Shown here: positions 6,001 through 9,000 of the stretch, piece by piece
How positions within the stretch are numbered: the stretch's first letter is position 1
How the letters are laid out: every line of letters starts with the position of its first letter
Virus record (IMG/VR): IMGVR_UViG_2671180603_000006
Origin: a virus
Taxonomy: Duplodnaviria > Heunggongvirae > Uroviricota > Caudoviricetes
DNA: 13,295 nucleotides
Direction: 5' to 3' (one strand)
Position numbers: made by a program

Positions 6001-9000
6001 AGGAGCTGAGTGACCGCTGGGTGGTGGAGCAGATGTCGCAGCTGACAGCCATGACGGCCTCGTTTGTGCTGGCTACACCGACCGAGACGGACGGGGCGCT
6101 GTTTCCCGGTCGCATCATGCTGGCGAACACCTGTATGTGGGATTACCGGGGAGATGAATGCGGGTATAACGGTCCTGCGGTGGCGGATGAGTTCGACAAC
6201 CCCACCACGGATATCCGTAAGGACAGATGCAGCAAGTGCATGCGCGGGTGTGAACTGCGCAGGAATGTCGGCAATTTTGGCGGTTTCCTTTCCATTAATA
6301 AACTTTCGCAGTAAATCCCGGTTTATGACACAGACTGAATCAGCGATTCTGGCACATGCCCGGCGGTGTGCGCCTGCGGAGTCGTGCGGCTTCGTGATAA
6401 GCACGCCGGAGGGGGAGCGGTATATCCCTTGTGTGAATATTTCCGCAGAGCCGGAGGCGTATTTTCGTATCGCACCGGAAGACTGGCTGCGGGCAGAGAT
6501 GCAGGGGGAGATTGTGGCACTGGTCCACAGTCATCCCGGTGGGCTGCCCTGGCTGAGCGAGGCTGACCGGCGGTTGCAGATAAAAAGCGCACTGCCCTGG
6601 TGGTTGGTCTGCCGGGGTGACATTCACAAATTCCGCTGTGTGCCACATCTGACAGGACGGCGCTTTGAGCACGGGGTGACGGACTGTTACACGCTGTTCC
6701 GGGATGCTTATCATCTGGCGGGGACTGAAATGCCGGATTTTCATCGCGAGGATGACTGGTGGCGCAACGGTCAGAACCTTTACCTGGACAATATGGCGGT
6801 CACCGGCTTTTACCGGGTGCCCCTGTCCTCTGCACAGGCGGGCGATATTCTGCTGTGCTGCTTTGGTGCTTCGGTACCGAACCATGCCGCCATTTACTGC
6901 GGCAACGGTGAGCTGCTTCACCATCTGCCTGAACAACTGAGTAAACGGGAGAGGTATTCCGAAAAATGGCAACGACGAACGCATTCAGTCTGGCGTCACC
7001 GCCACTGGCACGCATCTGCCTTCACGGGGATTTACAACGATTTGGCCGCCGCCTCAGCCTGTATGTGAACACGGCAGCGGAAGCCATTCGCGCCCTGTCG
7101 ATGCAGATGCCGGGCTTTCGCCGTCAGATGAACGAAGGCTGGTACCAGATACGTATTGCCGGTTATGACACGGCACCGGAGGCGGTGTACGCCCGTCTTC
7201 ACGAACAGCTGGGTGAGGGAACGGTCATCCACATTGTGCCGCGACTGGCCGGGGCCGGAAAGGGTGGACTGCAGATTGTGCTGGGGGCGGCAGCCATCGT
7301 GGGCTCTTTCTTCACTGCCGGGGCATCAATGGCGTTATGGGGTTCAGCCCTGGCAGCCGGTGGTTTTTCTGCCACCACGATGCTGTTTTCACTTGGAGCC
7401 AGCATGATTCTGGGCGGTGTGGCCCAGATGCTGGCCCCGAAGGCAAAAACACCGGATTACCGCGCAACGGATAACGGCAGACAGAACACGTACTTTTCCT
7501 CACTGGATAACATGATTGCCCAGGGGAACCCGATGCCGGTGCCTTACGGGGAAATGCTGGTTGGCTCCCGCCGTATATCCCAGGACATCAGCACCCGTGA
7601 TGAAGGCGGGGGCGGAAAGGTCGTGGTTATCGGGCGGCAGGGGTAAAAAGAATAAAAAAATCCCGCAGTGATCGCGGACAGGAACTGCGGGAGAGTTACG
7701 AAGATTAAGTGTAAGGAATTATTCTTATATCACGACAAAAAAATTAACGCAGAGAAATTATACGCGCCACAGTCAGTTTGTGAAAATGTGAAGATATTCA
7801 GAATTTTTATGCCATTACCGGTTTTAACCAACAGGATTATCGGTGGGCATGAAAGAAAACCCCGGTATCTGCTGATACCGGGGTTTCTCTTTAGCATGGC
7901 AGAAATGTGTTTCATGCTTTTCGGGCGAAGGATATCCGACTTCTGTACGGAATGGCAAGTGGCGGTTAATTTATTCAGGGGAAGGCTGTATGGGAAAAGG
8001 TGGCGGTAAGGCACACACGCCTCGTGAGGCGAAGGATAATCTCAAATCCACGCAGATGATGAGCGTGATTGATGCGATTGGTGAGGGACCGATAGAAGGT
8101 CCGGTGAAGGGACTGCAGAGTATCCTGGTGAACAAAACCCCGCTGACGGACACGGACGGTAATCCCGTGATACACGGTGTGACGGCGGTCTGACGCGCCG
8201 GGGAGCAGGAGCAGACACCACCGGAAGGCTTTGAGTCCTCCGGTGCTGAAACCGGACTGGGCGTGGAAGTGACGAAGGCAAAACCGGTGACGCGCACCAT
8301 TACGTCCGCGAACATTGACCGCCTGCGGGTTACCTTCGGGGTGCAGTCACTGGTGCAGACCACGTCAAAGGGTGACCGAAACCCGACATCCGTCCGCCTG
8401 CTGATTCAGTTACAGCGTAACGGTAACTGGGTGACAGAAAAGGATGTCACCATTAACGGCAAGACCACCTCGCAGTTTCTGGCGTCGGTGATTCTGGATA
8501 ATCTGCCTCCCCGTCCTTTTAACATCCGGATGGTCCGGGAGACAGCGGACAGCACCACGGACCAGCTGCAGAATAAGACGCTGTGGTCGTCATACACCGA
8601 AATCATCGATGTGAAACAGTGCTACCCGAACACGGCCATTGTGGGGCTGCAGGTGGATGCGGAGCAGTTCGGCGGCCAGCAGATGACGGTGAACTACCAT
8701 ATCCGCGGTCGCATCATCCAGGTGCCGTCAAACTATGACCCGGAAAAACGCACGTACAGTGGTATCTGGGACGGCAGCCTGAAACCGGCATACAGCAACA
8801 ATCCGGCCTGGTGTCTGTGGGACATGCTGACTCACCCGCGCTACGGCATGGGAAAACGTCTGGGGGCGGCGGATGTGGACAAGTGGGCGCTGTATGCCAT
8901 CGGGCAGTACTGCGACCAGACGGTCCCGGATGGTTTCGGGGAGACCGAGCCGCGGATGACCTTCAATGCGTACCTGGCACAACAGCGTAAGGCATGGGAC

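What the first reader, a model, noticed from the sequence alone, without database searches (positions are those of the whole stretch)
7647..7989. Non-lambda ~340 bp AT-rich insertion between I and J carrying a promoter-terminator unit for a candidate small RNA
In lambda, I and J abut; here they are separated by an AT-rich island with moron-like architecture. On the minus strand a near-consensus sigma70 promoter (TTCACA-N16-TATAAT, 7757-7784) lies about 100 nt upstream of a well-formed intrinsic terminator (8 bp GC-rich stem plus U-tract, 7647-7691), with no plausible ORF in between, predicting a ~100 nt non-coding RNA transcribed antisense to the late operon and ending on the I stop codon. A second perfect 12 bp hairpin (7858-7885) sits between this unit and J. 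Prophage-encoded Hfq-dependent sRNAs are established in enterobacteria, but I cannot match this sequence to a named one from memory.
Basis: partly seen in the sequence, partly recalled or inferred. Interest (0 to 1): 0.72.

Follow-up and report, generated by a model that had tools for sequence, protein, structure and literature searches.

The report
Prophage small RNA PasB, variant allele
The AT-rich spacer between two phage tail genes holds a self-contained gene for a small regulatory RNA of a family already shown by experiment in pathogenic E. coli (PasB, and very likely EcOnc22-24), here as a common but undescribed sequence variant.

Summary
On the minus strand, a near-consensus sigma-70 promoter (7784..7757) sits about 100 nt upstream of an intrinsic terminator (stem 7692..7661, U7 7660..7654), with no ORF between them. 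It is a homologue of PasB, an Hfq-dependent 83-nt sRNA found between tail genes I and J of a lambdoid prophage in EPEC E2348/69. It very likely also matches EcOnc22/23/24 of EHEC Sakai (about 85 nt, destabilised without Hfq).

Promoter, terminator, position and orientation are conserved. The RNA body is only about 72% identical to PasB, and the candidate seed differs at 8 of 27 positions. This allele occurs in 800 of 5426 complete E. coli genomes and is never annotated. The published PasB survey would miss it, because blastn with word size 28 gives no hit.

A 22-bp CRP-like box directly upstream of the -35 stays conserved in relatives whose -35 has decayed. This suggests an activator-dependent promoter, which is inference only.

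The second hairpin (7857-7886) is real. A plus-strand hairpin with a T-run just upstream of J is general in the lambdoid I-J spacers examined, lambda included. Ordinary overall, with modest added value.

The parts
7654..7750 (-). Predicted sRNA transcript (PasB-family, 'A' allele). It is 97 nt if transcription starts 7 nt after the -10. By homology to the published PasB ends it would be 7737..7654 (84 nt).
   Evidence: Alignments to E2348/69 PasB; published coordinates and probe; fold.
7757..7762 (-). -10 hexamer TATAAT
   Evidence: In relatives it reads TATAAT, AATAAT, GATAAT, TATCAT or GAAAAT, always at the same spacing.
7779..7784 (-). -35 hexamer TTCACA, with a 16-nt spacer
   Evidence: It is degenerate in VT1-Sakai, Stx1_499 and L155 relatives.
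7784..7805 (.). Conserved 22-bp palindromic box AAATGTGAAGATATTCAGAATT. It resembles a CRP site and is centred at about -44.5. Candidate activator site.
   Evidence: Two mismatches to AAATGTGA-N6-TCACATTT, with 0.01 expected per window. It is retained in divergent relatives that have lost the -35, with a fixed 21-nt distance to the -10.
7654..7692 (-). Intrinsic terminator: stem 7692..7685 with 7668..7661, a 16-nt loop, and U7 at 7660..7654
   Evidence: The stem is invariant in 12 alleles, and L155 has one compensatory G-C to A-U change.
7698..7717 (-). Candidate seed UCCUUACACUUAAUCUUCGU, predicted single-stranded, just upstream of the terminator
   Evidence: It is the most conserved part of the RNA body across alleles (AAyUCCnU...UUAAUCUUC). 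Zhu et al. place the PasB seed in the same position.
7718..7726 (-). A-R-N type stretch AAGAAUAAU. PasB has AACAAAAACAAC at the same place.
   Evidence: Alignment. The ARN motif as an Hfq-binding feature is described in Tree et al. 2014 (abstract).
7737..7743 (-). Conserved 5'-proximal U-run. The published PasB 5' end maps to its last U.
7857..7892 (.). Second hairpin (13-bp palindromic stem, loop UGCU) flanked by an A-run and a T-run. It looks like a terminator on both strands.
   Evidence: z = -6 on both strands. The consensus scan does not flag it. Positional equivalents in E2348/69 and VT1-Sakai are flagged on the + strand.
7813..7989 (.). 'Type-1' J-proximal spacer module. It is replaced by unrelated 83-84-nt spacers in E2348/69 and other relatives.
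   Evidence: Found in 1446 of 5426 genomes at 95-100% identity, with no distant relatives.
6966..7646 (+). Tail assembly gene I (context)
   Evidence: PF06805.
7990..8193 (+). Start of tail-tip gene J, here cut short by TGG->TGA (W68*) at 8191-8193 (context)

Best explanation
The minus-strand unit at 7654-7805 is an autonomous gene for a PasB-family prophage sRNA. EcOnc22-24 very likely belong to the same family. A sigma-70 promoter fires leftwards, antisense to the silent tail operon, and makes an RNA of about 84-97 nt. The RNA ends at an intrinsic terminator with a U7 tail, just past the I stop codon. It has a long unstructured 5' part: a U-run, an A-R-N stretch, then a conserved pyrimidine-rich segment UCCUU...UUAAUCUUC. 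Only the terminator hairpin is structured. This is the layout of an Hfq-dependent, trans-acting, base-pairing sRNA.

By inference it is expressed from the lysogen, bound and stabilised by Hfq, and pairs through the segment upstream of the terminator with Shine-Dalgarno or start-codon regions of host and accessory mRNAs. The window carries a divergent allele whose candidate seed differs from PasB at 8 of 27 positions, so its target set probably differs in part. A conserved CRP-like box abutting the -35 suggests an activator-dependent promoter, possibly controlled by cAMP-CRP.

Shown: anatomy, homology, conservation and prevalence. Shown for homologues only: expression, size, Hfq dependence and many RNA partners. 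Inferred: expression of this allele, its seed and targets, and its regulation.
For: Identity. The PasB Northern probe AATCCCGCAGTGATCGCGGAGCT matches window 7659-7678 over its first 20 nt. PasB lies at NC_011601 minus 1466343..1466261, between I and J of prophage PP6. Alignment shows the same -35, spacer, -10, terminator stem and U7, in the same order and orientation.

Experiment on homologues. PasB is Northern-validated, has 37 RIL-seq interactions, and drops in the hfq mutant by log2FC -6.8 and -2.4 in the two conditions. The flanking tail genes are nearly silent, with BaseMean 5-15 against 482-1082 for pasB. The Hfq-CRAC peaks of EcOnc22/23/24 lie in the I-J spacers of Sakai Sp15, Sp14 and Sp11, on the strand antisense to the tail genes. 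EcOnc22 is about 85 nt by Northern and is destabilised in the hfq mutant. After the assembly offset measured on AgvB1 (+139 to 143), the peaks cover the PasB-like RNA body.

Conservation. There are 33 distinct alleles in 120 IMG/VR loci, and 65 of 79 J-anchored loci carry the unit. The terminator stem is invariant, with one compensatory change in L155. The seed core is conserved.

Chance. 0.02 promoter matches and 0.01 box matches are expected per window.

Prevalence. The A allele is in 800 and the B allele in 956 of 5426 complete E. coli genomes.

Not coding. The transcript has no ORF, and the island ORFs hit no Pfam or PHROG family.
Against: No expression data exist for this allele. Its RNA body is only 64/89 aligned columns identical to PasB, and the stretch before its terminator is less U-rich than in PasB. 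No Rfam family matches.

The only consensus structure is the terminator, and covariation rests on one pair in one sequence. The 5' end is unresolved: the promoter predicts 97-98 nt, whereas 83 nt (PasB) and about 85 nt (EcOnc22) are reported.

The CRP-like box is centred at -44.5, not at the canonical -41.5 or -61.5, and it also partly fits a Cra-type TGAA-N4-TTCA palindrome (my own recollection of that consensus). The higher PasB level in overnight LB than in DMEM has many other possible causes. The host prophage is defective (J W68*), so selection on the locus in this strain is not guaranteed.
Confidence: 0.85

Rival explanations
1. The RNA acts mainly in cis. It is fully complementary to the I-J spacer of the late mRNA, and its promoter fires head-on against late transcription. 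It could therefore trigger RNase III cleavage or transcriptional interference that limits J expression. Conversely, late mRNA could titrate the sRNA away when the prophage is induced. Trans regulation would then be secondary.
For: The geometry is shown directly. The gene lies inside the late operon on the opposite strand, between I and J, in every relative examined. This is not exclusive of the trans model.
Against: PasB has 37 Hfq-mediated interactions with other RNAs and is nearly always the second RNA in chimeras (0.99-1.0), like trans-acting sRNAs. The tail genes are essentially silent under the conditions where PasB is abundant. The unit is kept intact next to a dead J gene in this window and downstream of sodC in L132, where no cis role on J is possible.
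Confidence: 0.15
2. In this defective prophage the unit is an inert relic. The sequence is preserved only because it was acquired recently, and it is not expressed or has no effect.
For: J carries a nonsense mutation and later frame changes. Most copies of this allele are over 99% identical, so conservation within the allele says little about selection.
Against: The promoter and terminator are intact and identical to the commonest allele. Across diverged alleles, the promoter spacing, box, seed core and terminator are kept while the surrounding sequence changes. Homologues are strongly expressed from lysogens.
Confidence: 0.07
3. The island is the remnant of a protein-coding moron, or encodes a small protein such as the 66-aa plus-strand ORF at 7809-8009 that is annotated as hypothetical in phage ASU11.
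For: ASU11 annotates a hypothetical protein over the type-1 spacer. The same site carries a true protein moron, sodC, in some relatives.
Against: The sRNA unit itself has no ORF. The island ORFs have no Pfam hit and only chance-level PHROG hits (E at least 0.09). The 66-aa ORF has no Shine-Dalgarno sequence, runs through a perfect palindrome and overlaps the J start. E2348/69 and the other relatives replace that spacer with unrelated 83-84-nt sequence.
Confidence: 0.02
4. The hairpins are only transcription terminators or insulators for the tail operon, and the promoter match is fortuitous.
For: A plus-strand terminator-like hairpin upstream of J is general in the spacers examined.
Against: The first hairpin has its U-tract only on the minus strand. 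The promoter match is expected 0.02 times per window. It is conserved at fixed spacing across alleles. Homologous loci give a discrete Hfq-bound RNA.
Confidence: 0.03

Closest known systems
PasB sRNA of EPEC O127:H6 E2348/69 (Pearl Mizrahi et al. 2021, PMC8550237; Zhu, Shabalina & Storz 2026 preprint, doi 10.64898/2026.05.13.724894)
   Same: It has the same locus (between tail genes I and J of a lambdoid prophage) and the same antisense orientation. The -35, the 16-nt spacer and the -10 are the same. The upstream 22-bp box differs at one position (A1). The terminator stem CCCGCAG/CUGCGGG and the U7 tail are identical. The RNA layout is the same: U-run, ARN stretch, conserved UCCUU...AUCUUC segment, terminator.
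   Different: The RNA body is only about 72% identical (64 of 89 aligned columns) and the longest shared word is 25 nt. The terminator loop is 5 nt longer. The candidate seed differs at 8 of 27 positions. The J-proximal spacer is unrelated (186 nt with a different hairpin, against 84 nt). The published survey used word size 28 and query coverage above 75% for Escherichia and describes only variants differing by a few nucleotides, so it would not have counted this allele.
EcOnc22 / EcOnc23 / EcOnc24 of EHEC O157:H7 Sakai prophages Sp15, Sp14, Sp11 (Tree et al. 2014, PMC4104026, Table S2)
   Same: These are Hfq-CRAC peaks in the I-J spacers on the strand antisense to the tail genes. EcOnc22 is about 85 nt by Northern and is destabilised in the hfq mutant. 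The Sakai loci align with the window unit: box, -10 spacing, seed core and terminator.
   Different: The Sakai allele has a poor -35 (TCCGGC) and an AATAAT -10, and is about 70% identical to the window unit. The assignment depends on an assembly-coordinate offset of +139 to 143, measured at one anchor, AgvB1. None of the three papers I read states the PasB-EcOnc22 link.
Anti-sRNAs AgvB and AsxR (Rfam RF02702, RF02703)
   Same: They are prophage-encoded, Hfq-bound short RNAs of pathogenic E. coli, each with its own promoter and terminator.
   Different: They lie 3' of PR' in the classical moron site, are 51-60 nt long, share a conserved 3' region that is absent here, and act as sponges of core sRNAs. 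The window has no Rfam hit.
Lambda-type morons such as sodC inserted at the same I-J junction
   Same: Both are autonomous promoter-to-terminator units placed within the late operon and expressed from the lysogen. sodC occupies the same site and strand in some relatives.
   Different: The cargo here is a non-coding RNA, not a protein.

Membership tests
PasB / EcOnc22-24 prophage sRNA family | Located in the I-J intergenic spacer of a lambdoid tail operon and transcribed antisense to it | tested here: met
   I = PF06805 at 6966-7646, J start at 7990, unit on the minus strand. The arrangement is the same in E2348/69 and in Sakai Sp15, Sp14 and Sp11.
PasB / EcOnc22-24 prophage sRNA family | Sequence homology to the published PasB gene | tested here: met
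   Co-linear alignment from the box to the U-tract, with promoter and terminator (near-)identical. The body has 64 of 89 aligned columns identical. Intermediate and recombinant alleles bridge the two forms. It is a homologue, not the same allele.
PasB / EcOnc22-24 prophage sRNA family | Own sigma-70 promoter at conserved spacing | tested here: met
   TTCACA-N16-TATAAT, 0.02 matches expected by chance. The distance from box to -10 is fixed at 21 nt in all relatives.
PasB / EcOnc22-24 prophage sRNA family | [quoted passage not shown] | tested here: met
   8-bp stem plus U7. The stem is invariant across alleles, with one compensatory change in L155.
PasB / EcOnc22-24 prophage sRNA family | Conserved single-stranded seed just upstream of the terminator | tested here: inconclusive
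   The core UCCUU...AAUCUUC is conserved and predicted unpaired. However, 8 of 27 positions differ from PasB, and no target is known for either allele.
PasB / EcOnc22-24 prophage sRNA family | Expressed as an RNA of about 83-85 nt whose abundance depends on Hfq | not testable with these tools
   Shown only for PasB and EcOnc22.
Anti-sRNA family (AgvB/AsxR) | Encoded 3' of PR' in convergent pairs; 51-60 nt; conserved 3' region (…GUAUCUCAUGC…GCCCGAACCC…) | tested here: not met
   Different position (I-J), no such sequence in the island, no hit to RF02702 or RF02703.
Any curated Rfam family | Score at or above the gathering threshold | tested here: not met
   0 hits in the window. Only sub-threshold chance hits were found, driven by terminator hairpins.
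CRP-activated promoter | 22-bp site close to AAATGTGA-N6-TCACATTT | tested here: met
   AAATGTGAAGATATTCAGAATT has 2 mismatches, with 0.01 expected per window. It is conserved in relatives with a decayed -35.
CRP-activated promoter | Site centred at -41.5 (class II) or -61.5/-71.5 (class I). These positions are from established knowledge, not tested here. | tested here: not met
   The centre at 7794.5 is 32.5 bp from the upstream edge of the -10, which is about -44.5 (coordinates).
CRP-activated promoter | Transcription depends on cAMP-CRP | not testable with these tools
   The only hint is circumstantial. PasB is higher in overnight LB than in DMEM, whereas Spf, known to be repressed by CRP, shows the opposite pattern.

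The most novel reading that the evidence does not exclude
The window allele would be a functionally distinct, unrecognised branch of the PasB family. Its rewired seed would give it a different regulon, and it is carried by about 15% of complete E. coli genomes, ExPEC strains such as ATCC 25922 and CE10 among them. All alleles together are in roughly a third of genomes, which would make this one of the most widespread accessory sRNAs of the species. It would be switched on by an activator, possibly cAMP-CRP, bound to the conserved box. Prophage-borne riboregulation would then be coupled to host carbon status, even from prophages whose tail genes are dead.
Probability: 0.3. Interest if true: 0.5.

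Novelty: new member of a known kind. Interest (0 to 1): 0.3.

Why it matters
The finding shows that reading sequence alone can pick out a real, experimentally supported prophage sRNA gene.

It adds three modest points to what is published:
- PasB (EPEC, 2021) and EcOnc22-24 (EHEC, 2014) very likely belong to one family sitting at the I-J junction.
- A second major allele, as common as PasB itself (800 against 956 of 5426 genomes), is unannotated and invisible to the published word-size-28 survey. The family's prevalence and its link to extraintestinal strains are therefore underestimated.
- The most conserved non-transcribed element is a CRP-like box. This gives a direct, testable hypothesis for regulation of an sRNA whose function is still unknown.

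None of this changes how prophage sRNAs are thought to work.

Tried and rejected
- **Rfam.** Searched at gathering threshold and at permissive E-values. Nothing passed the gathering threshold. The weak hits (STnc310, CopA, ncr1015 and others) are terminator-hairpin look-alikes.
- **AgvB/AsxR.** This was my first lead from memory. I rejected it because those RNAs lie 3' of PR' and share no sequence with the island.
- **EcOnc10 (Sp12).** I checked it as a possible transcript of the type-1 spacer. It maps to the lysis/terminase region instead.
- **Literature search for the RNA sequence strings.** No paper found.
- **Protein-coding reading of the island ORFs.** No Pfam hit, and PHROG hits only at chance level.
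- **Distant relatives of the type-1 spacer.** None found, only near-identical copies.
- **A plus-strand promoter served by the box.** None reached the scan threshold, and manual inspection found only weak hexamers.
- **A second minus-strand sRNA.** It would run from TTGCCA-N18-TATCCT (7958..7929, 9/12) to hairpin 2. I left it as unsupported speculation.
- **Targets of the sRNA inside the window.** Duplex scanning and exact-complement searches gave nothing beyond chance.
- **Scan of one genome per species.** The promoter block occurs only in E. albertii and in a probably contaminated 'Streptomyces' contig. This agrees with the published restriction to Escherichia and Shigella.
- **List of PasB RIL-seq partners.** I could not extract it from the large supplementary table within the look-up cap.
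Full report
**1. The observation**

The window is a lambdoid tail-gene block. It contains V-, G/T-, H-, M-, L-, K- and I-type ORFs, followed by J. The I-type ORF at 6966-7646 matches Pfam Lambda_tail_I. J starts at 7990. GC content drops to 0.38-0.45 between them.

On the minus strand, TTCACA-N16-TATAAT occupies 7784..7757 (11/12). It is the only site in the window within one mismatch of the sigma-70 consensus at that spacing, with 0.02 expected by chance. 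About 60 nt downstream of the predicted start (7750) lies an 8-bp stem, 7692..7685 paired with 7668..7661. It is followed by U7 at 7660..7654, about 8 nt before the I stop codon at 7644-7646. The transcript has no ATG.

The second hairpin is a 10-bp GC-rich stem extended to 13 bp (7857-7886), with z = -6 on either strand. One correction: lambda does have a 60-nt I-J spacer.

**2. What it is**

Rfam gives nothing. BLAST shows the island in 1718 of 5426 complete E. coli genomes, always between the tail assembly gene and gpJ. Many Stx phages match only the promoter-to-terminator half.

The literature search led to the Pas sRNAs of EPEC E2348/69. PasB is an 83-nt RNA at NC_011601 minus 1466343..1466261, between E2348C_1436 (I) and E2348C_1437 (J) of prophage PP6. 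Its Northern probe matches window 7659-7678 over the first 20 nt. I fetched that locus (L003) and aligned it. The two loci are co-linear. They share the -35, the 16-nt spacer, the -10, a 5' U-run, an A-rich stretch, a pyrimidine-rich segment, the terminator stem CCCGCAG/CUGCGGG and U7.

My mapping agrees with an independent statement in the 2026 preprint. The preprint says PasB-2 differs from PasB at position 27, and the PPompW-type allele in my set differs from PasB exactly there (C27A).

**3. Experimental status of the family**

- PasB was confirmed by Northern blot.
- It depends on Hfq: log2FC is -6.8 and -2.4 in the hfq mutant.
- It has 37 RIL-seq interactions and is nearly always the second RNA in chimeras.
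- It is more abundant in overnight static LB than in exponential DMEM.
- The flanking tail genes are essentially silent.

There is also an earlier record. Table S2 of Tree et al. 2014 lists EcOnc22 in Sp15 (about 85 nt by Northern, destabilised in the hfq mutant), with homologues EcOnc23 (Sp14) and EcOnc24 (Sp11). In NC_002695.2 all three peaks fall within the 240-nt I-J spacers of those prophages, on the strand opposite to the tail genes.

The paper used the older assembly. AgvB1, whose sequence is given in the paper, lies 139-143 nt further along in NC_002695.2. With an offset of 128-143, each peak covers the body of the PasB-like RNA. Without an offset, the peaks would cover a region with no promoter or terminator.

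I conclude that EcOnc22-24 and PasB are one family. This link is not stated in Table S6 of the 2021 paper, in the 2021 review or in the 2026 preprint text. It rests on a single offset anchor and should be confirmed by lift-over.

**4. How the window allele differs**

Against the 83-nt PasB, the window RNA has 64 identical columns of 89 aligned. The longest shared word is 25 nt. blastn with word size 28 finds nothing, and word size 11 covers only 30% of the query.

The published survey used word size 28 and coverage above 75% for Escherichia and Shigella, and it reports only variants differing by a few nucleotides. It would therefore not have counted this allele.

- The transcribed region of the window allele is present in 800 of 5426 genomes, 634 records at 99% identity or more, and is never annotated.
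- The PasB-type region is present in 956 genomes.

I collected 120 IMG/VR loci using the promoter block; note that conservation of that block in this set is by construction. They contain 33 distinct units. The window allele is the commonest, and there are recombinants between allele types. In an independent J-anchored sample, 65 of 79 loci carry the unit.

**5. Anatomy and likely mechanism**

RNAalifold on 12-13 diverged alleles predicts only the terminator hairpin. Its stem is invariant except for one compensatory G-C to A-U change in L155. The remaining roughly 70 nt are unstructured.

Within the body, the most conserved segment is AAyUCCnU...UUAAUCUUC(A/G)U, directly upstream of the terminator. 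Zhu et al. place the PasB seed in the same position. UCCUU is complementary to a Shine-Dalgarno core, and CUUCAU to AUGAAG. This fits translational repression at ribosome-binding sites, but no target has been verified. Both alleles keep an A-R-N type stretch and a 5' U-run.

I therefore propose an Hfq-dependent, trans-acting, base-pairing sRNA expressed from the lysogen. This is shown for homologues and inferred for this allele.

**6. Promoter control (inference)**

The 22 bp abutting the -35, AAATGTGAAGATATTCAGAATT (7784-7805), differ from the CRP consensus at 2 of 16 specified positions. 0.01 such matches are expected per window.

In BLAST-derived divergent relatives (VT1-Sakai, Stx1_499, WGPS8, L155), the -35 decays to TCCGGC, TTCTGT or TTCCGG and the -10 varies. 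The box and its 21-nt distance to the -10 are nevertheless kept. The Sakai-type allele, assigned here to EcOnc22, is expressed despite its poor -35. This is the signature of an activator-dependent promoter.

Against CRP specifically, the centre lies at about -44.5 rather than -41.5. The medium dependence of PasB (up in LB, while Spf is up in DMEM) is compatible with CRP but not specific to it.

**7. The second hairpin and the rest of the island**

Beyond 7812 the window carries a 'type-1' spacer. It is nearly invariant, occurs in 1446 genomes and has no distant relatives. Relatives replace it with unrelated spacers of 83-84 nt.

Those other spacers carry a different plus-strand hairpin, CAGGCAyCC...GGrTGCCTG, followed by TTGTTTTT. 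It shows C-G to U-A compensation with a U-G intermediate form and is flagged as terminator-like. Lambda has yet another hairpin plus T-run in its 60-nt spacer, although the scan does not flag it.

A plus-strand hairpin with a T-run just upstream of J is therefore a general positional feature of the lambdoid I-J spacers examined. The PasB unit is the extra cargo inserted between the I stop codon and this hairpin.

The role of the hairpin is inferred only. It may stop transcription that is not Q-modified from entering J. In the window type, which is symmetrical, it may also shield the sRNA promoter from antisense transcripts.

**8. Rivals**

- **Cis-antisense or interference role on I-J.** This is possible by geometry. 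It is not needed to explain the data, and it cannot apply where J is dead, as in this window, or where the unit follows sodC (L132).
- **Inert relic.** Unlikely, given conservation of the functional elements across diverged alleles.
- **Protein coding.** Not supported.

**9. Verdict**

It belongs to a known, experimentally supported family of prophage sRNAs. It is an undescribed but common allele, so I rate it a new member of a known kind. Interest is low to moderate.

Noticed in passing
window 8191-8193 and 8263-11914: J is a pseudogene. TGG->TGA (W68*) is seen relative to PPompW and E2348/69, and the reading frame changes later (ORFs 8263-9906, 9900-10583, 10790-11914 lie in different frames). 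The prophage is defective, yet the sRNA unit is intact.
   Followed up: partly
L132 (Stx2_EH1846) 480-1101; L145-type loci: In some relatives the I-J junction carries sodC (Cu/Zn superoxide dismutase) on the minus strand: 9 of 79 J-anchored loci (by my reading of the L145 sequence) and L132, where sodC is annotated. In L132 the A-type PasB body and terminator lie directly downstream of sodC, and the PasB promoter has been replaced. PasB could there be a 3'UTR-derived RNA of sodC.
   Followed up: partly
L124 (lambda) 745-806; L003 1931-1964; L127 666-699; window 7857-7892: A strong plus-strand hairpin followed by a T-run sits just upstream of J in lambda, E2348/69, Sakai and the window. At least three unrelated sequences fill this position, and the CAGGCA-type shows compensatory changes. 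It looks like a conserved positional element of the tail operon with unknown function.
   Followed up: partly
L048: A 47-nt deletion between two GAAA repeats removes the type-1 hairpin exactly and leaves the rest of the spacer intact.
   Followed up: no
L162: An insertion sequence (a transposase 3' end, identified only by my reading of the sequence) interrupts the type-1 spacer. The PasB unit is no longer adjacent to J.
   Followed up: no
L155: A more divergent family member. Its terminator stem is CCCACAG/CUGUGGG (compensatory change), its box is TGTGA-N6-TCAGG and its -10 is GAAAAT. The seed core UUAAUCUUCAU is kept.
   Followed up: partly
L126 (NZ_JBHTEB010000006.1): A 3.4-kb contig labelled Streptomyces flavalbus carries a PasB-like unit. 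This is almost certainly contamination of that assembly with E. coli prophage DNA.
   Followed up: no
window 7929-7958 (minus) to 7850: A weak promoter-like site, TTGCCA-N18-TATCCT (9/12), lies upstream of the minus-strand face of hairpin 2. Together they could define a second short minus-strand RNA of about 70 nt. No supporting data were found.
   Followed up: no
whole window vs E. coli genomes: No complete E. coli genome matches the whole window at more than about 97% identity, although the island itself is 100% identical in many. The tail region is a mosaic, or it comes from a lineage outside that collection.
   Followed up: no
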